From an uncultured Acidobacteriota bacterium (GTDB lineage Bacteria > Acidobacteriota > Blastocatellia > RBC074): DNA of 64,000 nucleotides. Of the stretch, positions 14,538-56,829 are shown one piece after another (positions within the stretch are counted from its first letter, which is position 1; each line of letters starts with the position of its first letter). The notes beneath the pieces were generated by a model. That model did not search any database, was not told where the DNA came from, and worked only from the letters and a program-made list of their open reading frames with translations. Position numbers and translations under genes: made by a program. The stretch lies in contig CAWCKY010000006.1 of assembly GCA_963796275.1 (NCBI GenBank), forward strand, positions 1,184,001 to 1,248,000. Direction: 5' to 3'.

Positions 14538-15254
14538 TCACTCTGTGAGTATCGCCGTTTGCGGTCGCGTCCATTGAATCCAGACCTCGGCTGCAATGAA
14601 ATGCAGCACAAAGCCGATCCAAAACGCGGGGCCGAAAAATTCGTATGGCGTCAGCCCGGAAAATGGACTGGTGGCGAAGAAGACGGCGATGATCGGCCGA
14701 ATAGTGGCGACAGCCAGACCAATCGAGAAAGCGCGAATCATCCATTCTCGGTGCAGCGCGATTTCGCGTCTCAAAACATGTCGAAACGCTTTACCCAACG
14801 CGAACAAAAACCACACGCCAAACAGCGTTGTTGATGCTGCTTGATTGACGCCGCCGATGGCCGGCATCGCAAAGCTCATCACCAGAGCCGACACGCCGAT
14901 CACCGTGCCGCATAAAAATAAGATGCGACCGCTCCGCCGGTGCCATTGAAGATGTCGTTTGCGGAATCCTGAATTGAACTGCAACGGCCCCAACGCAATA
15001 AAGAGCAAGCCGGGGAGGATATGAACGAGCGTCAAAAGGGGATTGGGCGCGAACACGCCATCAAGCGCGGCGAACTGCGCCAATCTGGGATTGGATGGGA
15101 TAGCGGGCGGACTGTATCCATAGATCAAAATAGGCGCCAGGTGCACCATCCTCCGCACAACGGCGAATGCGCCGATCAGCGCTAGGAAGATGATTGCCCC
15201 CCACAAAATGCGGTGGGCGCGAATACCGGGTCTCAGCATTTTTAAATCTTTCAA
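14538..15254 (-). CDS. DUF2306-family membrane protein
   Basis: Multi-TM with 'HILPG...GPLQF', 'HRRSGR', 'HREWMIRAF' motifs. Confidence 0.8.
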   Translation of the reverse strand: MKDLKMLRPGIRAHRILWGAIIFLALIGAFAVVRRMVHLAPILIYGYSPPAIPSNPRLAQFAALDGVFAPNPLLTLVHILPGLLFIALGPLQFNSGFRKRHLQWHRRSGRILFLCGTVIGVSALVMSFAMPAIGGVNQAASTTLFGVWFLFALGKAFRHVLRREIALHREWMIRAFSIGLAVATIRPIIAVFFATSPFSGLTPYEFFGPAFWIGFVLHFIAAEVWIQWTRPQTAILTE

Positions 15255-15347
15255 TACTCTATAAACGTTGTAGCGTCCTTCTTATTAACAGGCTAATTAA
15301 CAGGCTAACAAATTTTTGCTCGGTTTAGCCCCCAGACGCAGCCACCC

Positions 15348-15398
15348 TTGACTTCATATCAGGGTGAGAGCATCCTTCCTATAGACTTACTATGGAAG
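15348..15398 (+). promoter_or_regulatory. Sigma70-like promoter with overlapping palindrome (candidate PadR operator)
   Basis: TTGACT-N17-CATCCT followed by imperfect palindrome CTTCCTATAGACTTACTATGGAAG (15375-15398). Confidence 0.5.
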
Positions 15399-15422
15399 AA
15401 AATCTATGAGAGGAGGGAATTT

Positions 15423-15773
15423 ATGAGAAAAGACGACAAGCAGCAGAAAGCTGAAATGTTGCCGGGAACTTTGGAGATGTTGATCCTCAAAACTCTGGAG
15501 AGAAACGCTCAACCGATGCACGGTTATGGCATAGCCCTGTACCTCAAACAAATTTCGCAGGACGTTCTCAAAGTGGAGGAAGGATCGCTCTATCCCGCAC
15601 TCCAGCGATTGGCGATAAAAGGTTGGGTGAAAGCTGAGTGGGGACAGTCTGACAACAATCGGCGCGCGCGTTTTTACAAATTGACGCCTGCCGGACGGAA
15701 GCAGCTCAGGCGGGAGGAGGCTGACTTCGAGCGCATCCTGGAGGCGATCTTGCGCGTCATGCAACCGGCGTGA
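15423..15773 (+). CDS. PadR-family transcriptional regulator (acidobacterial type)
   Basis: 'GTLEMLILKTL...MHGYGI...EEGSLYPALQRL...NNRRARFYKLT'; GGAGGG RBS. Confidence 0.92.
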   Translation: MRKDDKQQKAEMLPGTLEMLILKTLERNAQPMHGYGIALYLKQISQDVLKVEEGSLYPALQRLAIKGWVKAEWGQSDNNRRARFYKLTPAGRKQLRREEADFERILEAILRVMQPA

Positions 15774-15785
15774 AGAGTGTGAATT

Positions 15786-18452
15786 GTGTTGAATCAGCTT
15801 CTTCAGATCTGGCGCAGGCTGCTCTTCTATTTGAGGCGCGATCGATTTGACCGCGAGTTGGAAGAGGAGATGCGGTTCCACCTGGAGATGAAGGCTCAAG
15901 CGAACGCCGAGGCCGGGATGGAGCCTCTGGAAGCGCGCTATGCCGCCGGGCGGCAATTCGGCAATCAAACATTACTCCGGGAGGTGAGCCGCGAGATGTG
16001 GGGAGTCAGATCGATCGAAACGCTCTTTCAGGATTTGCGATACGGTGGGCGGATGCTTCTGAAAAACCCGGGGTTCGCGTTGATTGCTGTGTTCACAATG
16101 GCGCTAGGCATTGGGGCGAACACGGCCATCTTCAGCGTCATCAACAGCGTGCTGCTCAAACCGCTGCCTTACCATGAACCGGACCGCATCTATCAAGTGC
16201 TGAGGTGCAATCCGTCGGGCATGTCGACGACCGTGTCGGTTTCGAAGTTCTCGTTCTTTCACCAGCATAACCAAACTTTCGAGAGTCTGGCGGCGTGCGA
16301 CACGTTCGGGAGCGGGATCAACCTGCTCGCGGGCGACGAGGCGCACTTTGTCAGCGGCCTCAGGGTTTCCGCCGATTTCTTCCAGGTCCTGGGCATCAAT
16401 CCCCTGTTGGGCAGGTCGTTCACAGCGGCGGACGACCAACCCGGCGGCGCCCGCGTGGTTGTCATCAGTCATTCGCTCTGGAAACAGGTATTACAGGGCG
16501 ATCGGCAAATCGTCGGCAGGACCGTATCCCTGGGCGGCGAGGGGCACGTGGTTGTGGGCGTCATGCCGCCCGGGTTCCAGCCCAAACCCTCCGCTGAAAT
16601 CTGGATGCCGCTTCGCGCGGTTTTCGATGCGGCGAATAAGAGCAACGATTATATGATGCTTGGGCGGACCAAACCCGGCATCACTTCAGAGCAGTCGCAG
16701 GCCGATATGGATCGAGTGCTGACGTTGATGCGCAGGGATTATCCCGACCACGTGGGCGACAATGAAATGACGGCGGTCGTCAGATATAAGGACCGGCTTG
16801 TCGGAGACACGAAGCAGCCGCTGCTCCTGCTTCTGGGTGCGGTCGGGTTCGTGTTGTTGATCGCATGCGCGAACGTGGCCAATCTTCTCCTCTCGCGCGC
16901 CGCCGCGCGGAGCAGGGAGATGTCAGTCCGCGCCGCTTTGGGGGCGGGCCGATTCAGGCTGACACGCCAACTGCTGACCGAAAGCCTGTTACTGGCAGGC
17001 GCCGGCGCAGCCCTTGGATTGTTGCTTGCCCATTTCGGCCTGAAGTCTCTGCTCGCCCTGGTACCAGACAGTCTGCCGCGAGCGAGCGAAATCAGGATCG
17101 ACCCGCTGGCACTGCTGTTCATGCTCGGTGTTGCGGCGGCGGCCGGAATCGTATTTGGACTGGCTCCGGCGCTCAACGCGGGCAGGCAGAATTTGGCGAA
17201 TGCGTTGCGCGAAGGCGGCGGCCGGACGTCTGGCACCGCATCGACCGCGCGGATACGCAACATCTTCGTCGTCTTGGAGATCGCCCTCTCGATGGTCCTC
17301 TTGATTGGGGCCGCTCTCCTGATACGCACTTTCGCGAACCTTCATAATGAAAGCCTCGGCTTCGACCCCCACAATGTGCTCACAATGAGGGTTTCCCTGG
17401 ACGGTCAACGTTATTTGACCACGGCGGAAACTGATAAATTCTTTCGCCAGGTCTTTGAACGGATCAGGCAGATACCGGGCGTCGTATCGGCCGCCTATGT
17501 CACCGCTCTGCCGATAGAATTCAGCCCTGATCTGCCGTTCCACATTGAAGGACGGCGAGAGAACGCCCGGGGATCGGCGATCTATAAACACGTCACTCCG
17601 GATTTCTTTCACACGATGACTGTGCCGTTACGGCAGGGCCGCCTGATAGAGGAGCGCGACAGCGAAAACGCTCCCGGTGCGGTGATCATCAATGAATCGC
17701 TCGCCCGCCAGTTCTTTCCGAATGAGAATCCCCTTGGTCAGCTAATCACGGTGGGCAAAAACTTCGGGCCGGACTTCGCGGATCGCTCCCGCGAAATCAT
17801 CGGTGTTATCGGCGACTTGAGGGAAGAAAGCGTCGACCTTCCCCCGGCGCCGGCGGTCTACGTTCCGCTTGCCCAACGGCCCGACCGGGTGACCCGGTTC
17901 GTCAATAGACTTGGTGGAGCGACGTTCGTCGTAAAAACGAGACAGAACCCCGCAAACTTGCAAAACGCCGTGCGCGCCGCGTTGCGCGCCGCTGATGCCA
18001 CGCAGGCGGTCTCCAACATGCGGACGATGGATGATGTCCTGTCGGTGTCGCTGGCGAGACGACGATTCAACATGCTCCTGTTATCCGTGTTCGCGAGCCT
18101 CGCGCTGCTGCTCTCGTCGATAGGCATCTATGGGGTTATGTCGTATTCAGTGCAGCAGCGCACGCATGAGATAGGTATTCGCATGGCTCTCGGCGCACAA
18201 GCGCGTGACGTACTGTGGTTGATCATCCGACAGGGGCTGGCGATGACGCTGATCGGAGTGACGCTGGGTTTGGTGGCGGCTATTGCCTTGACGCGCTTAA
18301 TGGAAACTCTGTTATTTGGCGTAAGTGCGACTGATCCGCTGACATTTACCATGATTACGTTCCTGCTGACGTTCATCGCCCTGCTGGCTTGCTGGATTCC
18401 AGCGAGACGGGCTACGAGAGTCGATCCAATGGCGACTCTGCGATTCGAGTAA
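15786..18452 (+). CDS. ADOP-type (acidobacterial duplicated orphan) ABC permease, MacB/FtsX domains
   Basis: 'ELEEEMRFHLEM', 'QDLRYGGRMLLKNPGF', 'LLIACANVANLLL', 'EIGIRMALGA', 'PARRATRVDP'. Confidence 0.95.
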   Translation: MLNQLLQIWRRLLFYLRRDRFDRELEEEMRFHLEMKAQANAEAGMEPLEARYAAGRQFGNQTLLREVSREMWGVRSIETLFQDLRYGGRMLLKNPGFALIAVFTMALGIGANTAIFSVINSVLLKPLPYHEPDRIYQVLRCNPSGMSTTVSVSKFSFFHQHNQTFESLAACDTFGSGINLLAGDEAHFVSGLRVSADFFQVLGINPLLGRSFTAADDQPGGARVVVISHSLWKQVLQGDRQIVGRTVSLGGEGHVVVGVMPPGFQPKPSAEIWMPLRAVFDAANKSNDYMMLGRTKPGITSEQSQADMDRVLTLMRRDYPDHVGDNEMTAVVRYKDRLVGDTKQPLLLLLGAVGFVLLIACANVANLLLSRAAARSREMSVRAALGAGRFRLTRQLLTESLLLAGAGAALGLLLAHFGLKSLLALVPDSLPRASEIRIDPLALLFMLGVAAAAGIVFGLAPALNAGRQNLANALREGGGRTSGTASTARIRNIFVVLEIALSMVLLIGAALLIRTFANLHNESLGFDPHNVLTMRVSLDGQRYLTTAETDKFFRQVFERIRQIPGVVSAAYVTALPIEFSPDLPFHIEGRRENARGSAIYKHVTPDFFHTMTVPLRQGRLIEERDSENAPGAVIINESLARQFFPNENPLGQLITVGKNFGPDFADRSREIIGVIGDLREESVDLPPAPAVYVPLAQRPDRVTRFVNRLGGATFVVKTRQNPANLQNAVRAALRAADATQAVSNMRTMDDVLSVSLARRRFNMLLLSVFASLALLLSSIGIYGVMSYSVQQRTHEIGIRMALGAQARDVLWLIIRQGLAMTLIGVTLGLVAAIALTRLMETLLFGVSATDPLTFTMITFLLTFIALLACWIPARRATRVDPMATLRFE

Positions 18453-18485
18453 GTCCGCCCTTGTTTAGCAAGCTTTCGCATATCA

Positions 18486-18515
18486 GTAAACGCATTCAGG
18501 GTAAACGCATTCAGG
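18486..18515. repeat. Perfect 15-bp tandem duplication
   Basis: GTAAACGCATTCAGG x2. Confidence 0.9.
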
Positions 18516-18598
18516 AAAGAGCGTGCATCTCGCCACCTAGCAGGAACACGTCGTCGTCGGCCAGTGGCGAGGAACCCGCGAATTTGTTGATAGAACGA

Positions 18599-18882
18599 GG
18601 TCACTCACCCGCCACTAAGTTGCTTTGCAACTATAGTGGGGGCTTGTCGGGTAACCGATGAGCCTGGTTGACCAGACTAAGCTGGGGCCAAAAGGCTTGC
18701 AGCTACGATGTTTGAGTTAGGTTTAAACCGAGACACCCACGGATGCGATAGCCAGTCCGTGGCCACTGTCGTTTAGCGTTAAACAGCGGTTACGGGTAAT
18801 CGCCAGTGCGTTGAACTAAGAAGCTCAGACATCATTGTCGAGGCTAACTTAACGGCAGCAATGCCAGAGGCCCGAAAGGGCC
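18599..18882 (+). ncRNA. IscB-type omegaRNA / HEARO-like structured RNA, stand-alone
   Basis: Ordered hallmark motifs GTCAC..CCC, GGCTTG, GTTGACCAGACTAAG, CTACG, ACACC-CGGATGC-CCAGTCCG, CACTGTCG, TTAAACAG, CAGTG, CATTGTCGAGG-TTAAC, plus many complementary stems and two pseudoknot-type pairings. Confidence 0.85.
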
Positions 18883-18905
18883 ATTCTCACAATGCAAGTA
18901 GGGGG

Positions 18906-19649
18906 ATGATAATGGCCAAAAGAATATTTATTTGTGGATCATTGTGCCTGGCAATCTTTGGCGGCTTGATCCTTGGCAAGTATCGAACTACTGCCGCAGA
19001 CGACCATTGGCAGATACGCGGTGCGCTCAGCGAAGCCTGTACCTGCAGTGTGCCTTGCACCTGCAACTTCGGCCAGGGCCCGTCGCCACACAGCTACTGC
19101 CATGTGGTTTATGCCTACGACATCAAGGAAGGTAATTTTAACGGGATCAAACTCGACGGCTTAAAATTAGGAGCGATGGAGACGGCAAAAGGCAATGCCA
19201 TGTACCTCGACGCTTCAGCCAGCCCCGATCAGCGCAAAGCGATCGAAACGATCGCCCGACAGATGATGCGCGTTTCGAATGACCGAATGGGCGGGGCCAG
19301 CTTTCTCGGCATCAAGTGGGTGAAGATCAAGCAGGAATACAATGAAAAGCAGGATAAGCTGGACCTCGGCGGTTTCGGCGGCTTCAAATCCAATTACATC
19401 ATGGGCCGAGACAAAACAAAGCCAGTCATCGTCGTCAACAATACCGAATGGGCCATACGCGAAGCCATCAAAGGTAAGACTGAGTATCTGCGCGTTAAAG
19501 ATGAATACGGCAACGAGTATTCGGTGAAGGATTCCAACTCAAATCACGGCGACTTCGAGTACACCGAGAAGTCTCATCCCGGAAGCGGATGGCCCGCTTC
19601 CACATGCTCAGTCAATACGAAAGAGGGTGAGCAGAAACATAAACATTGA
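18906..19649 (+). CDS. DUF1326-family protein (Cys-rich, probably metal-binding, exported)
   Basis: Signal-like N-terminus, 'WQIRG..SEACTCSVPCTCNFG', 'MYLDASASPDQRKAI'; ORF-track start 18861 lies inside the RNA. Confidence 0.8.
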   Translation: MIMAKRIFICGSLCLAIFGGLILGKYRTTAADDHWQIRGALSEACTCSVPCTCNFGQGPSPHSYCHVVYAYDIKEGNFNGIKLDGLKLGAMETAKGNAMYLDASASPDQRKAIETIARQMMRVSNDRMGGASFLGIKWVKIKQEYNEKQDKLDLGGFGGFKSNYIMGRDKTKPVIVVNNTEWAIREAIKGKTEYLRVKDEYGNEYSVKDSNSNHGDFEYTEKSHPGSGWPASTCSVNTKEGEQKHKH

Positions 19650-20056
19650 ACTCGGCCAGGAAGAGCTTCCACAAAAATCACATACAGAGAGCAAATAGCG
19701 CAAAGAACACCTGCTATTCCTGGTGCAGTTCTTTTATGTTTTTGATGTCATTTTTTGATGTCATTTGGTGATCTTTGTGATGAATCTCCGGTAAATCTTC
19801 GCTACTCCTCTTTGAACCCCTTCCTTTCTGCAATTTTTTTCAAAAGATGTAGTGATTAATTGTCATGTTTTAGAGGCCTCCATTCACTCAAAACATGAGA
19901 AAGAAATGCAACCGGCTTATTCCGCCAGACTGGCTTCACCCTTGTAATTAGGGGTGTTCCATTAAACAGTCGGGATCTTTTTTGACGATTGTCGCGCGGC
20001 ATCTCGTTGAGGGGGCTGGCATCAACACGAGGCCAAAGAAGCATAGGCAGGGACAG

Positions 20057-20422
20057 ATGTTGATGATCTCTAAAAAGCAGATGGAAGTTTTGCGACAGGT
20101 GGCGCGAGGAGAGTTCATTCGGAGAACGCTCGCAGTTCTCCGTGAAGCGGTTCCCGGCTTCCTTGCTGGAGTGGACGAAGCGACAGCTCTGAGACGGGTG
20201 GAGGATAGTGTCGCCCAAGCGGAAGCTTATGGGTTGTCCACCGAGCGCCAGGTCCGGGATTTCATCGCGATTGAGACGGTTGCGGGTGAGGATTTCGCCA
20301 GCAATCCGCGCTTCGCCGGAGCACGTGGGGCTCTTGCTGATTTCACTGTCTCACCCGCCGATCGTTTGGCGCGCGCACGCCAGCGTGTCGCCGAAGCCCT
20401 GGCGCAAAAGGACAAGGGATGA
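20057..20422 (+). CDS. Small protein resembling the C-terminal helical region of DUF4123 T6SS adaptors
   Basis: 'MLMISKKQM...FIRR...AEAYGLSTERQV..FI....GEDF..NP' pattern; ATGA overlap with downstream toxin. Confidence 0.55.
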   Translation: MLMISKKQMEVLRQVARGEFIRRTLAVLREAVPGFLAGVDEATALRRVEDSVAQAEAYGLSTERQVRDFIAIETVAGEDFASNPRFAGARGALADFTVSPADRLARARQRVAEALAQKDKG

Positions 20423-21871
20423 GCGAAAGTCTTTTCCCAGACCTGGGTGGCGCAGACCGCCCGGCCGATTCCACGGTTATACCGTGCCCAAATACATTAA
20501 CTAATTGGATCGACCTCGAATACCTCTATGCGGATGGGACAGGCGTCGCCGGGGCCTCTTACATCGTCCATATCCCTAATGGCGGACAGGTGGGCGGAAG
20601 CGTGCTTGCCCAGGGGACTCTCGACCGCAAAGGCCAGGCGCGCGCTGTCTTACCTGCTGAAATAGAAGGGGTCGCAGTCTATTTCCACGATGATCCGGAC
20701 GGAGCGCCCTATCGTGACGCCGATGCGGATAGCCCGATTCAGGAACCATATCCTGGCTTTTTCAGTCGTATCTGGGATGGGATAACTGATGGAACGAAAT
20801 GGGTGGGCGGTGTGTTGGCTGGAGATTTCAAGGAAGATTCCTCAACCGGCCAGATTGTCGCCAACATGATCGTGACGATGATTCCGGGCATCGACCAGCT
20901 TGGCGATGCCCGCGATATCGTTGCGAATCTCAAAAAGCTGATTTGGGATCGCCGCTGGAACGAAGCGGGGATGTGGCTCAGCCTCTTGCTATGCCTGATC
21001 GGGTTGATCCCCGAGCTCGGCTCTCTGGCTAAAGGAATCATCAAGGTTGCGCTGCGCAATACGTCCAAGCTGGCGGATCTGCTGGCAGTCTTCAACTTTT
21101 TCAAAAAGGGTAATGGAGTTCACTGGTTACGCGAGTTCGCCGAGAAACTGCCGACCGCACACGCGTCGGCCGCGGCAAACAAACTCAAAGAACTACTGGA
21201 CAGAGCCGCGCCCTATCTGCAACAGGCACGGAACCGCTGGTTCACGCCGCGGACGACGATCGACCGTCTCCTGAATAACATAGAAGAGGTCAAGCAACTC
21301 GTCCCCCAGAAGTTGAAAGAGGCTGCCGAATACGTCGCCGAAAAGATCGAGCAAGCGTTAAATGAAGTGAGGGAGTTGCTGCCCGGTAGTGCAAAAGAGC
21401 GATTACAGTTGCGCCAGGTTAGGGCAGCCCCTCACGAATCAATTCCTGTCCACGGAACGCCAGTATCCTCAACGCGTCCGAGAATTTTCGATCAATCACG
21501 AACAGGGAAACAAACTGGATATGGCCCAGGGATTGGGAGGCGCGCGTTACGAACTTGCCACAGGTCGAAAGATTTCAACGACAACGGTGGAGGGGGCCGA
21601 CCTGGTTGACCCGATAACTGGCCCATTCCAGCTCAAAGGGCCATTAGTCAATAAGAAGACCGGCCAGCCATTAATCATCAACGATAGGATGGTCGATGGG
21701 CTTGCTCAATCGGTTGGAGATGATTTGCGTTACAATACGTATACGAAAAGCATAGTTGTCGATACCATGGGGATGTCCCCCGCGCAGCGTGACCGATTGA
21801 AACGAGCTATCGATGCAGATCTCGCTGCACGGCCTGTGGCGCAACCCAAACCGATCATTATCCTTGAGTGA
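20419..21871 (+). CDS. Polymorphic toxin (FIX-like N-terminus, pre-toxin helical region, PD-(D/E)xK-like C-terminal nuclease), one frameshift at about 21390-21490
   Basis: 'WIDLEYLYADGTGVAGASY..GTLDRKGQA', 'GDFKED..QI..IPGIDQLGDARD', C-terminus in second frame 'GADLVDP..FQLKGP..IVVDTMGMS'. Confidence 0.65.
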
Positions 21872-21882
21872 GGTGACAATCG

Positions 21883-22299
21883 ATGGGACATTCTTACGTT
21901 AAATTCAGCGATCGGGTACAGATGATGAATGATATGGAGATCATTATCGCCGTCCATGTCATCCTCGATGTGACGCGGAAGACTCCGGACATTCCTGCTC
22001 CCCGAGTGACGGAAAACATCAAAATCTTGCTCGATTCCTGGGAGCACCTGATCGATGTCTATGGGCCTGGCATGGTTGGCTTTAACTTTAGTGAATATAT
22101 GCAGACGGATGAGGACCGTGACTGTCTGCTAAGATTGATTGACATCTCTCGTCGGAGGTTGCAGCAATTCGGTGAAGTAGTTCCGGGGGACTACCTGAAT
22201 AGAGTCGTCGACGCATCGGCGATACTCGAATTCGAGGATCGGCCGATAGCAAAGGTGCTCACCGCATTCGACAAATTCACCAAGCTTCTTAGCGGCTGA
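21883..22299 (+). CDS. Putative cognate immunity protein
   Basis: 138-aa acidic ORF 11 nt after toxin stop, GAGGTG RBS. Confidence 0.6.
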   Translation: MGHSYVKFSDRVQMMNDMEIIIAVHVILDVTRKTPDIPAPRVTENIKILLDSWEHLIDVYGPGMVGFNFSEYMQTDEDRDCLLRLIDISRRRLQQFGEVVPGDYLNRVVDASAILEFEDRPIAKVLTAFDKFTKLLSG

Positions 22300-22362
22300 A
22301 AAGCTATGTGCGGTGGAATCAAATGCCTGGGCAGCTTTCTTGTCGCGACCTACGCGGTTGAA

Positions 22363-23064
22363 TCAGCTCCGGGCCAATCTCACCAGGGTTGCTCGTGCCT
22401 CCTCGGTAGTTTTGATCGGCGAGTCGAAATCTATTCTCAATTTCCGTCCATCGGCTAACAGATCGATCCCTTCGCTATCGATCCCGATCATTAGCGCCGC
22501 ACCCGCTTTTACACCCTTCAGCGCCTCGCAATAATGAAATAGGGCAGGCTTGTGATCCTGATTCATATGCTGAATGATCATACGCTCGCTTTCGCGGAAA
22601 GGATTCCCGATAAGCATGTCATCTGGTTCGATCCAGTAGATCTGTCCAAAGCCTCCAATAAAACGCGCCCTCCGCAATTTGATTCGATAGAAAGAAAAAT
22701 CGTGCGTCTCAAAATATGATTCCGATGAAGGAAAGTATCGTAGATATCGATCGCGCGTCTCCGCATCGCGCGGATCGACCGGCTCGGCATCTCCCAACCA
22801 TGTCAGGCGACCGTTGGCCTGTGGATCATCGGCCTGCTGATCGAATACAGTGAGCGACACTTTATTGTTATGCTTGATATTACGCGTGTGCTGGGCAATA
22901 TCGCTGATGAGTAGGATCGGCTCGCCGTCATAATTGAGTGTATAAGGCGCGATCGAGCCAAATGGATATCCGGCAACATCCACCGAATGAGTTGAGAGCA
23001 CACCGACACTCTGTTGATTTAACAATCGTCTTGAATTTGATGCTTGGTCTGACATGGCCGCCAT
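22363..23064 (-). CDS. HugZ/PNPOx-like split-barrel protein with DUF2470
   Basis: 'GVLSTHS..GYPFGS', 'ISDIAQHTRNI', 'RFIGGFG', 'HMNQDH', 'GIDSEG'. Confidence 0.9.
   Translation of the reverse strand: MAAMSDQASNSRRLLNQQSVGVLSTHSVDVAGYPFGSIAPYTLNYDGEPILLISDIAQHTRNIKHNNKVSLTVFDQQADDPQANGRLTWLGDAEPVDPRDAETRDRYLRYFPSSESYFETHDFSFYRIKLRRARFIGGFGQIYWIEPDDMLIGNPFRESERMIIQHMNQDHKPALFHYCEALKGVKAGAALMIGIDSEGIDLLADGRKLRIDFDSPIKTTEEARATLVRLARS

Positions 23065-56755: not shown

Positions 56756-56829
<74 letters not shown>

What the first reader, a model, noticed from the sequence alone, without database searches (positions are those of the whole stretch)
18599..18882. Stand-alone IscB-type omegaRNA (HEARO-like) with no iscB, sitting directly in front of a DUF1326 gene
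Seen: a ~285-nt intergenic segment folds into the omegaRNA/HEARO layout. Elements are the 5' GGTCA pairing with TGACC (18669-18673); hairpins CCACTA-AGTTGC/GCAACT-TAGTGG and GGCTTGTCGG/CCGATGAGCC; long-range stem GATGTTTGAGTT (18707-18718)/AGCTCAGACATC (18822-18833); CCACGGA/TCCGTGG whose loop TAGCC (18749-18753) can pseudoknot with GGCTA (18842-18846); CACTG (18764)/CAGTG (18804); and terminal hairpins GGCA-GCAA-TGCC and GGCCC-GAAA-GGGCC. Established: such RNAs guide IscB/IsrB nucleases of IS200/IS605 elements and normally precede a PLMP-domain ORF; trans-acting solo copies are known. Here no PLMP, RuvC, HNH or tnpA sequence is visible, and the slot usually taken by iscB holds an unrelated exported DUF1326 gene starting ~25 nt downstream. 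Inference: an intact trans-acting guide RNA, or an omegaRNA domesticated as leader/regulator of a host gene.
Basis: partly seen in the sequence, partly recalled or inferred. Interest (0 to 1): 0.85.

Follow-up and report, generated by a model that had tools for sequence, protein, structure and literature searches.

The report
Truncated IscB transposon remnant: orphan guide RNA
This is a genuine IscB guide-RNA (omegaRNA/HEARO) gene, but it is the leftover front end of a decayed transposon whose nuclease gene was deleted, so that a host gene now sits in the nuclease's place; orphan copies like this are already known and common.

Summary

It is not a separate kind of locus. It is the first 302 nt (18600-18901) of a 1643-bp IscB insertion element that has 8 copies or fragments in this genome.
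- Similarity to the iscB-bearing copies starts exactly at GTCAC.
- It stops 10 nt into iscB (ATG 18892, three codons).
- There it is fused to the last ~12 nt of the native leader of DUF1326, essentially its ribosome-binding site.
- The far transposon end is missing, so this copy cannot move.

One intact iscB (444 aa) lies elsewhere in the genome, so use of the RNA in trans is possible. However, its guide-position flank matches only its own locus.

DUF1326 homologues elsewhere carry no HEARO: 0 of 14 loci, 7 of them informative. Orphan omegaRNAs are common in relatives and already published.

Verdict: a real feature, an ordinary decay product, of low interest.

The parts
15786..18452 (+). Upstream host gene: ADOP-family duplicated ABC permease, on the same strand as the omegaRNA. 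It is the likely source of read-through transcription.
   Evidence: TIGR03434 ADOP 970 bits against a cut-off of 622. Pfam MacB_PCD plus FtsX. The scan of 18300-19800 found no terminator-like site.
18580..18599 (+). Guide position: the 20 nt of flanking DNA directly 5' of the scaffold. It differs in every copy of the element.
   Evidence: Flanks diverge immediately upstream of GTCAC in all 5 full omegaRNA copies. With up to 2 mismatches the 20-mer hits only this locus in the 9.46-Mb genome.
18600..18853 (+). HEARO / IscB omegaRNA scaffold (Rfam RF02033), full length.
   Evidence: 122.2 bits, E 9.2e-25, model 1-211/211. Covariation of stems and of the nexus-type pseudoknot.
18854..18882 (+). 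Two 3' hairpins of the omegaRNA (GGCA-GCAA-TGCC and GGCCC-GAAA-GGGCC), beyond the Rfam model.
   Evidence: Conserved in all 5 copies; the C/T difference keeps a G-U pair. Meers et al. state that RF02033 lacks downstream structural elements.
18600..18901 (+). The whole element-derived fragment: the first 302 nt of a 1643-bp IscB insertion element.
   Evidence: blastn: 98.4% identity to C2:23077-23379 over 304 columns, and 93.75% to reference positions 501-804 of the complete copy. No further piece of the element lies nearby.
18892..18909 (+). Remnant of the iscB start: ATG CAA GTA are iscB codons 1-3. Then GGG GGA TGA is host-derived, which gives a 5-codon mini-ORF (MQVGG*).
   Evidence: Sister copies read MQVAVIDQNRRPLAP... 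from the same ATG. The alignment breaks after ...GCAAGTAG.
18900..18911 (+). Junction and native ribosome-binding region of DUF1326. AG at 18900-18901 is shared by both parents (2-nt microhomology).
   Evidence: The 12 nt before the ATG match the closest homologue L044 at 10 of 12 positions (agggggatgata against agggagatgaca). Nothing further upstream is alike.
18912..19649 (+). DUF1326 gene (245 aa) with a hydrophobic N-terminus. It sits in the slot that iscB occupies in intact copies.
   Evidence: Pfam PF07040, 71 bits. Full-length homologues of 72-84% identity in soil metagenome contigs.

Best explanation
The segment is the 5' 302 nt of a non-autonomous IS200/IS605-type IscB element (1643 bp: omegaRNA, iscB, and a far end with a subterminal hairpin).

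**Origin (inferred).** An ancestral full copy inserted downstream of the ADOP gene, in the same orientation. A later deletion ran from codon 3 of iscB, through the rest of the element and an unknown length of host DNA, to about 12 nt upstream of the DUF1326 start codon. The join carries a 2-nt AG overlap.

**Result (shown).**
- A complete omegaRNA gene.
- No iscB.
- No far transposon end, so TnpA cannot mobilise this copy.
- A DUF1326 gene that keeps only its ribosome-binding site and has lost its native upstream region.

**How it most likely behaves (inferred).**
- The omegaRNA has no promoter of its own, because its guide is flanking DNA. It is therefore transcribed by read-through from the ADOP gene, and the same transcript now serves as the leader of DUF1326.
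- Any processed omegaRNA could load onto the one full-length IscB encoded elsewhere in the genome.
- Its guide matches only its own locus, where the scaffold rather than a TAM follows the match. It therefore has nothing to cut in this genome.

It is a young, probably neutral relic, not a dedicated system.
For: **Family and scaffold**
- Full-length HEARO hit.
- 5 HEARO copies in the genome, all above the cut-off.
- 3 RRXRR/IscB N-terminal matches, none in the window.

**Boundaries**
- In the alignment of the 5 copies, similarity starts at GTCAC. In the window copy it stops after ...ATGCAAGTAG, while the others continue into iscB.

**blastn map of the 8 copies or fragments**

| Copy | Reference positions present |
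|---|---|
| Complete copy, C2:298214-296572 | 501-2143 |
| 3'-truncated copy | 501-1886 |
| Internal deletions keeping both ends (3 copies) | 501-998 + 1701-2143; 500-837 + 1977-2143; 501-542 + 1994-2142 |
| Other fragments (2) | 501-542 + 1925-2002; 1648-2141 |
| Window copy | 501-804 only |

No far-end copy lies near the window. The C6 hits are at 66 kb, 1.81, 2.47, 2.57, 2.59 and 2.82 Mb, against 1.2026 Mb for this copy.

**Nuclease elsewhere in the genome**
- IscB of the complete copy is an open 444-aa frame with RRXRR and HNH domains.
- It matches NF040563 'RNA-guided endonuclease IscB' at 439 bits and solved IscB structures at E 1.5e-30.

**Junction**
- DUF1326 homologues share with the window only the ~12 nt before the ATG.
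- tblastx similarity begins at 18894-18912 in all 9 loci that reach the 5' end of the gene.
- A soil-metagenome contig about 92% identical to DUF1326 starts to fit the window exactly at 18901; its first 72 letters do not fit (run X2, record 8).

**Other points**
- Youth: 98.4% identity to a sister copy.
- Each guide-position 20-mer hits only itself.
- No terminator-like site in 18300-19800. No promoter-like site on the + strand between the ADOP stop and the omegaRNA.
- Published orientation bias of IscB elements towards the upstream gene (Meers et al. preprint, passages seen).
Against: - No closely related genome with the orthologous site was available, so the empty or full ancestral state is inferred, not seen. 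DUF1326 was not found in 40 relatives at E<=1e-10, and the flanking genes show no synteny in the 14 homologue loci.
- All 5 differences from the nearest sister copy are structure-neutral by my reading of the alignment: a C-G to U-G change, a G-U to G-C change, loop positions and a linker position. Selection on the RNA would look the same. With 5 changes this has no power either way.
- The DUF1326 frame is intact although it lost its native upstream region. That would fit continued expression through the omegaRNA, which makes the RNA part of a working transcription unit rather than pure junk.
- Transcription of this copy was not shown.
Confidence: 0.85

Rival explanations
1. A functional stand-alone guide, kept by selection. 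The orphan omegaRNA is expressed and loads in trans onto the IscB encoded at C2:297920-296586. It directs that IscB to a target that benefits the element family or the host, for example incoming DNA that carries the uninterrupted site.
For: - The scaffold is complete and scores as high as the iscB-linked copies: 122.2 bits against 108.8-125.3.
- An intact IscB exists in the genome.
- The omegaRNA is 93.75% identical to that IscB's own omegaRNA.
- Stand-alone omegaRNAs that work with IscB are reported in print (Hirano et al. 2022 citing Altae-Tran et al. 2021; passage seen).
- An RNA-library contig from soil carries the guide flank plus the omegaRNA of the other iscB-less copy, C7:1014k (run X6). 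DNA carry-over in that library is not excluded.
Against: - The 20-nt and 16-nt guide-position sequences have no second match beyond chance level. With up to 2 mismatches the 20-mer gives 1 hit, itself; the 16-mer gives 9 hits, about what I estimate by hand from genome size for chance.
- The truncation point inside iscB, and 7 sister copies in assorted states of decay, fit random decay.
- The copy is too young (98.4% identity) for its conservation to mean anything.
Confidence: 0.08
2. A domesticated leader. The omegaRNA has been co-opted as a structured 5' UTR or regulator of DUF1326, for example with IscB binding or processing controlling DUF1326 translation. The 5-codon iscB remnant, which ends 2 nt before the DUF1326 ATG, could provide translational coupling.
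For: - DUF1326 has lost everything upstream of its ribosome-binding site and still has an intact 245-aa frame.
- It sits in the same position relative to the omegaRNA as iscB does in intact copies.
- No terminator-like site separates them.
Against: - 0 of 14 DUF1326 homologue loci have a HEARO; 7 of them hold at least 420 nt upstream.
- The linkage is seen in this one genome only.
- The junction looks like an accidental deletion with 2-nt microhomology.
- The age is too low for the intact frame to prove continued expression.
Confidence: 0.05
3. A mobile omegaRNA-only mini-element (PATE-like), that is, a non-autonomous IS with both ends and no protein gene, inserted in front of DUF1326.
For: - Such elements exist. 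In this genome C7:1014505-1014005 keeps the omegaRNA plus the far end.
- In relative G027, 4 of the 4 iscB-less copies examined are ~455-bp units with both ends.
- Meers et al. describe IS elements that encode an omegaRNA only, and PATEs.
Against: - The window copy has no far end. Similarity stops at reference position 804, and the nearest far-end copy on the contig is over 0.6 Mb away.
- The break lies inside the iscB reading frame, not at an element terminus.
Confidence: 0.02

Closest known systems
HEARO RNA (Rfam RF02033) = omegaRNA of IscB/IsrB OMEGA systems
   Same: - Full-length covariance-model match well above the curated cut-off.
- Same stems.
[quoted passage not shown] 2022, passages seen).
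- Extra 3' hairpins beyond the Rfam model, as noted by Meers et al..
   Different: At this locus it is not followed by iscB. Only the first three codons of iscB remain.
Stand-alone omegaRNAs that act in trans with IscB (Altae-Tran et al. 2021, known to me only through the citation in Hirano et al. 2022)
   Same: An omegaRNA gene without an adjacent nuclease gene, in a genome that encodes a compatible IscB elsewhere.
   Different: - Here the origin is visible: a truncation inside iscB.
- No activity, expression or target has been shown.
omegaRNA-only IS elements and PATEs of Geobacillus stearothermophilus (Meers et al. 2023 preprint, passages seen)
   Same: A derivative of an IS200/IS605-type element that has lost its protein gene. 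Sister copies in this genome and in G027 are of exactly that type.
   Different: Those elements keep both transposon ends and stay mobilisable by TnpA. The window copy keeps only the omegaRNA end.
ISC / IscB non-autonomous insertion elements (Kapitonov et al. 2016, seen in a search listing only)
   Same: The parent element is of this kind: omegaRNA, then iscB, with no tnpA. TnpA genes lie elsewhere in the genome (9 Y1_Tnp matches).
   Different: The window holds a 302-nt fragment, not an element.

Membership tests
HEARO / IscB omegaRNA (RF02033) | Covariance-model score at or above the curated gathering score, over the full model | tested here: met
   122.2 bits against 83; model 1-211/211; E 9.2e-25.
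HEARO / IscB omegaRNA (RF02033) | Stems and nexus-type pseudoknot supported by compensatory changes | tested here: met
   14 sequences from 7 genomes. 78.1% of cells paired against 27-47% with slid partners. Pseudoknot 84.3% paired with 4 of 5 pairs changed on both sides. This is a MAFFT alignment, so the counts for the long stems are conservative.
HEARO / IscB omegaRNA (RF02033) | Lies directly upstream of an iscB/isrB reading frame on the same strand | tested here: not met
   Only ATG CAA GTA G of iscB remains (18892-18901); DUF1326 follows. The feature is met in sister copies C2:23079 and C2:298214.
IS200/IS605-type IscB insertion element (mobilisable unit) | Both transposon ends with their subterminal hairpins | tested here: not met
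   The omegaRNA end is present. The far end (reference 2046-2143; 24 genome hits) is absent from the window region.
Stand-alone trans-acting omegaRNA | A compatible full-length IscB encoded elsewhere in the same genome | tested here: met
   444-aa open frame at C2:297920-296586. RRXRR 228 bits plus HNH, NF040563 439 bits, PDB IscB E 1.5e-30. Catalytic residues were not checked one by one.
Stand-alone trans-acting omegaRNA | The RNA is expressed with a guide and directs cleavage of a matching, TAM-flanked target | tested here: inconclusive
   No second match to the guide-position sequence in the genome. The TAM is only inferred (ATGAA-like, from conserved far-end junctions). Expression and cleavage cannot be tested with these tools.
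Domesticated RNA leader of DUF1326 | omegaRNA-DUF1326 linkage conserved in other genomes | tested here: not met
   0 of 14 homologue loci (2 MAG, 12 metagenome) have a HEARO match; 7 have at least 420 nt upstream of the start codon.

The most novel reading that the evidence does not exclude
The deletion has made the omegaRNA the obligatory 5' leader of the DUF1326 mRNA. A host envelope protein would then be transcribed, and perhaps translated through the 5-codon iscB remnant that ends 2 nt before its ATG, only as part of an IscB guide-RNA precursor. Binding or processing of that leader by the genome's IscB would couple expression of a host gene to the activity of a transposon nuclease. That would be an early, caught-in-the-act stage of omegaRNA exaptation.
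Probability: 0.06. Interest if true: 0.65.

Novelty: new member of a known kind. Interest (0 to 1): 0.22.

Why it matters
**What it adds.** It mainly corrects the annotation. The locus should be labelled as an IscB-element remnant (an omegaRNA pseudo-element), not as a new regulatory RNA or a separate guide-RNA system.

**Decay series.** This genome holds a tidy series of copies of one IscB element:
- one complete copy;
- one 3'-truncated copy;
- three internal deletions that keep both ends;
- three other fragments, including the window copy.

The series shows how orphan omegaRNAs arise. Most arise by internal deletions that keep both ends and stay mobile.

**The one point of wider interest.** A host gene has been placed, to within a few nucleotides, in the nuclease's slot behind the guide RNA. 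If DUF1326 is still expressed, it must be expressed through the omegaRNA. That would make this a natural test case for whether a structured omegaRNA leader affects a downstream gene.

Tried and rejected
- **Empty-site comparison in relatives.**
  - A DNA search with window 17400-20000 in 40 relatives returned only ~65-80% identical ADOP paralogue hits. No match to the HEARO or DUF1326 parts outside G000 was listed; 25 weaker matches were not listed.
  - A protein search with DUF1326 in the same 40 relatives gave 0 matches at E<=1e-10.
  - The orthologous site could therefore not be compared. G004, one of these relatives, is flagged unpublished.
- **Synteny around DUF1326 homologues.** tblastx of window 15000-23000 against 14 loci found only the DUF1326 gene itself in common. 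This gave no information on what was deleted.
- **RNA evidence for this copy.** Of 18 runs listed, I laid 4: X1, X2, X3 and X6.
  - No contig of either RNA library covers the junction 18469-18600 or the region 18777-19700.
  - X3 covers only 18300-18418 (ADOP).
  - X6's omegaRNA contig carries the flank of another copy.
  - Contigs cannot show absence, so nothing follows for this copy's expression.
- **Guide targets.** Near-matches with 1-2 mismatches to the 14- and 16-nt guide-position sequence number about what I estimate by hand from genome size for chance. The only one I looked at closely (C4:1629130) is not followed by the candidate TAM.
- **Promoter scan.** The single promoter-like site near the junction (18884-18913) would start transcription inside the DUF1326 frame. 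I give it no weight. Acidobacterial promoters may not fit the sigma-70 consensus.
- **DUF1326 as cargo of a larger mobile unit.** Rejected, because no far end lies downstream.
- **Literature.**
  - Weinberg et al. 2009 (PMC4140389) is not held.
  - Altae-Tran et al. 2021 was not read; it is cited only through Hirano et al.
The supplements of Meers et al. and Altae-Tran et al., which list omegaRNA-only or stand-alone loci, could bear on how common truncations of exactly this type are.
  - I ran no search aimed at an omegaRNA fused to a host gene's ribosome-binding site, so I make no claim that it is not in print.

Full report
**1. The observation**

- A scan of the whole window against Rfam gives two matches above the curated thresholds: a tRNA at 56756-56827, and HEARO (RF02033) at 18600-18853 on the + strand. 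The HEARO match scores 122.2 bits against a gathering score of 83, E 9.2e-25, covers model positions 1-211 of 211, and is not truncated.
Those bases belong to other helices in the model.
  - 78.1% of 411 cells form standard pairs, against 27-47% when the partners are slid by 1-3 columns.
  - 24 of 31 pairs show changes on both sides.
  - 0 of 500 shuffles reach the observed score.
  - It corresponds to the 'nexus pseudoknot' of IsrB/IscB omegaRNAs: a stem-loop pairing with the single strand between the long stem and the next hairpin (Hirano et al. 2022, PMC9581776, passages seen).
- The two terminal hairpins at 18854-18882 lie beyond the Rfam model. They are conserved in all five copies in the genome, in line with the remark of Meers et al. 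that RF02033 lacks downstream elements.
- The RNA is therefore real and complete.

**2. What it belongs to**

The window is C6:1184001-1248000 of a 9.46-Mb, 7-contig genome.

*Family members in the genome*
- The genome holds 5 HEARO matches, all above the cut-off, at 108.8-125.3 bits.
- It holds 3 matches to the IscB N-terminal family RRXRR. Two lie directly behind HEARO copies on contig C2. One is truncated, on C7.

*Boundaries*
- In the alignment of the five HEARO copies with their flanks, similarity begins exactly at GTCAC. The upstream flanks are unrelated.
- In the window copy it ends after ...CACAATGCAAGTAG (18901). The other copies continue with CAGTCATCGATCAAAAC..., which is iscB.
- The iscB start codon is the ATG at window 18892. 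Sister copies read MQVAVIDQNRRPLAP.... The window reads ATG CAA GTA GGG GGA TGA, and the DUF1326 ATG follows at 18912.

*Map of the family.* blastn of the two iscB-bearing copies against the genome gives this map, in coordinates of a 3-kb reference in which the element runs from 501 to 2143:

| Copy | Reference positions present | State |
|---|---|---|
| C2:298214-296572 | 501-2143 | complete, 1643 bp |
| C2:23079-24464 | 501-1886 | far end lost |
| C7:676368-675428 | 501-998 + 1701-2143 | internal deletion |
| C7:1014505-1014005 | 500-837 + 1977-2143 | omegaRNA plus far end only |
| C7:908801-908990 | 501-542 + 1994-2142 | internal deletion |
| C2:398260-398367 | 501-542 + 1925-2002 | fragment |
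| C7:1020945-1020452 | 1648-2141 (88% identity) | 5'-truncated |
| Window, C6:1202600-1202901 | 501-804 | omegaRNA end only |

*The nuclease*
- The complete copy encodes an open 444-aa frame with RRXRR and HNH domains.
- It matches NCBIfam NF040563 'RNA-guided endonuclease IscB' at 439 bits against a cut-off of 175.
- It matches solved IscB structures (7utn, 7xht) at E 1.5e-30.
- The second iscB is cut short at 368 aa.

*The far end and the transposase*
- The far end carries an imperfect palindrome (CCATCCA...TGGATGG).
- It belongs to a family with 24 blastn hits in the genome. Most end in ...GAGGTTT(A/CT)GATGAA, followed by unrelated sequence.
- One of these hits lies beside a tnpA. Nine Y1-transposase matches exist in the genome, none in the window.
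- From this I infer a non-autonomous IS200/IS605-type IscB element mobilised in trans. I also infer an ATGAA-like motif at the far junction as the candidate TAM. Both are inferences, not tests.

**3. The junction with DUF1326**

- The downstream frame is a DUF1326 protein (Pfam, 71 bits). With the ATG at 18912 it is 245 aa, the same length as its homologues.
- Homologues were found in 2 acidobacterial MAG contigs and 12 soil-metagenome contigs, at 60-86% amino-acid identity.
- None of the 14 loci has a HEARO match. Seven have at least 420 nt upstream of the start codon, enough to hold one.
- tblastx of window 15000-23000 against these loci finds only the DUF1326 gene. Similarity starts at 18894-18912 in all 9 loci that reach the 5' end of the gene.
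- Upstream of the ATG, the closest homologue (L044) reads agggagatgaca where the window reads agggggatgata: 10 of 12 positions agree. Further upstream nothing is alike.
- The host-derived sequence therefore begins at about 18900. The AG at 18900-18901 could come from either parent.
- Independent support comes from a soil-metagenome contig about 92% identical to the gene (12 differences in 159). It begins to fit the window at exactly 18901; its first 72 letters do not fit (run X2, record 8). Those letters were not shown to me.
- DUF1326 thus keeps only its ribosome-binding region. Its native upstream region has been replaced by the front of the IscB element.

**4. How it most likely works**

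*Shown*
- A complete scaffold.
- No nuclease gene.
- No far end, so the copy cannot be excised or copied by TnpA.
- A same-strand upstream gene, ADOP (TIGR03434, 970 bits).
- No terminator-like hairpin anywhere in 18300-19800, and no promoter-like site on the + strand between the ADOP stop and the RNA.

*Inferred*
- The RNA is made, if at all, by read-through from ADOP. This fits the published bias of IscB elements to lie in the orientation of the upstream gene.
- The same transcript carries DUF1326.
- A processed omegaRNA could bind the intact IscB, whose own omegaRNA is 93.75% identical.
- The 20 nt in the guide position hit only their own locus at up to 2 mismatches. The same holds for the other four copies.
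  - That is what a homing guide made of flanking DNA should look like.
  - At the locus itself the match is followed by the scaffold, not by a TAM.
  - In this genome the RNA therefore has nothing to cut.
- The copy is 98.4% identical to its nearest sister, so it is young, and its intactness needs no selection to explain it.
- I put 0.85 on 'truncated remnant, functionally incidental'.

**5. Rivals**

- *A guide retained for trans action (0.08).* It has an intact partner and published precedent, but no target and no sign of retention.
- *A domesticated leader of DUF1326 (0.05).* It is not conserved anywhere else (0 of 14 loci).
- *A mobile omegaRNA-only mini-element (0.02).* The missing far end excludes it.

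**6. How ordinary is it?**

- HEARO is patchy among relatives: 7 of 61 genomes have a match, and 6 of 61 have one above the cut-off, G000 included.
- Where it occurs, orphan copies are common.
  - G027 has 17 HEARO matches but only 5 RRXRR matches, each next to one of the HEARO copies. That leaves 12 of 17 without iscB.
  - I examined four of those twelve. All 4 are ~455-bp units with the omegaRNA end and the far end.
  - G014 has 20 HEARO matches, all below the family's cut-off, and 9 RRXRR matches that are mostly fragments.
- Elements encoding an omegaRNA only, and PATEs, are described for Geobacillus (Meers et al.).
- Stand-alone omegaRNAs that function with IscB are cited by Hirano et al..

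**7. Verdict**

- It is a new member of a known kind, an orphan omegaRNA, and more precisely a pseudo-element.
- Interest is low (0.22).
- The residual interest is the possibility, about 6%, that DUF1326 now depends on an omegaRNA leader.

**8. Limits**

- No orthologous site in a close relative was available.
- There are no expression data for this copy.
- The TAM is inferred only.
- IscB catalytic residues were not checked individually.
- Altae-Tran et al. 2021 and Weinberg et al. 2009 were not read, and paper supplements are closed.

Noticed in passing
window 18486-18515: A perfect 15-nt tandem duplication (GTAAACGCATTCAGG twice) lies in the 147-nt spacer between the ADOP stop codon and the omegaRNA. 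Its origin is unknown; it could be a repair or slippage footprint.
   Followed up: no
G000 genome-wide, e.g. C2:72144-72235, C6:1807769-1807866, C4:80410-80313: The ~95-nt far end of the IscB element (hairpin CCATCCA...TGGATGG, then ...GAGGTTTAGATGAA) gives 24 blastn hits in the genome. Most are not attached to any iscB. A second terminal subtype ends in ...CGCGGATGATAA or ...CGCGAACTTCAGATAA. One copy (C6:2593569-2593512) lies next to a tnpA match that contains an in-frame TGA. It looks like a family of end-only or PATE-like relics shared with tnpA-bearing IS200/IS605 elements.
   Followed up: partly
G000 C2:398260-398367 and C7:908801-908990: Two copies keep only the first ~42 nt of the omegaRNA (its first hairpin, probably also the transposase-binding end hairpin) joined to 3' parts of iscB. 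At C2:398260 the join falls in a short similar stretch (CTAT[A]GTGGGG) that occurs in both parts.
   Followed up: partly
G000 C7:1014505-1014005; run X6: A contig from a soil metatranscriptome library carries 27 nt of the upstream flank of this iscB-less mini-element, followed by 177 nt of its omegaRNA, with 3 differences. This is a weak hint that an orphan copy is transcribed together with its guide. DNA carry-over is not excluded.
   Followed up: partly
window 18912-19649: The DUF1326 gene has no homologue at E<=1e-10 in 40 relatives of the same class. It has 60-86% identical homologues in soil-metagenome and MAG contigs, with no shared neighbours. It looks like an accessory, horizontally moving gene. 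Five of these homologues share a conserved leader (...gccatatccgaatcaggaggtcgcaATG).
   Followed up: partly
G000 C2:23370-24476: The second iscB is cut at reference position 1886. It ends after 368 aa in unrelated sequence and lacks about the last 80 residues and the far end. It is probably not a working nuclease, which leaves a single intact iscB in the genome.
   Followed up: partly
window 20419-21609 and 19982-20422: Two + strand frames downstream of DUF1326 (396 aa and 146 aa) have no Pfam family at E<=0.01.
   Followed up: no
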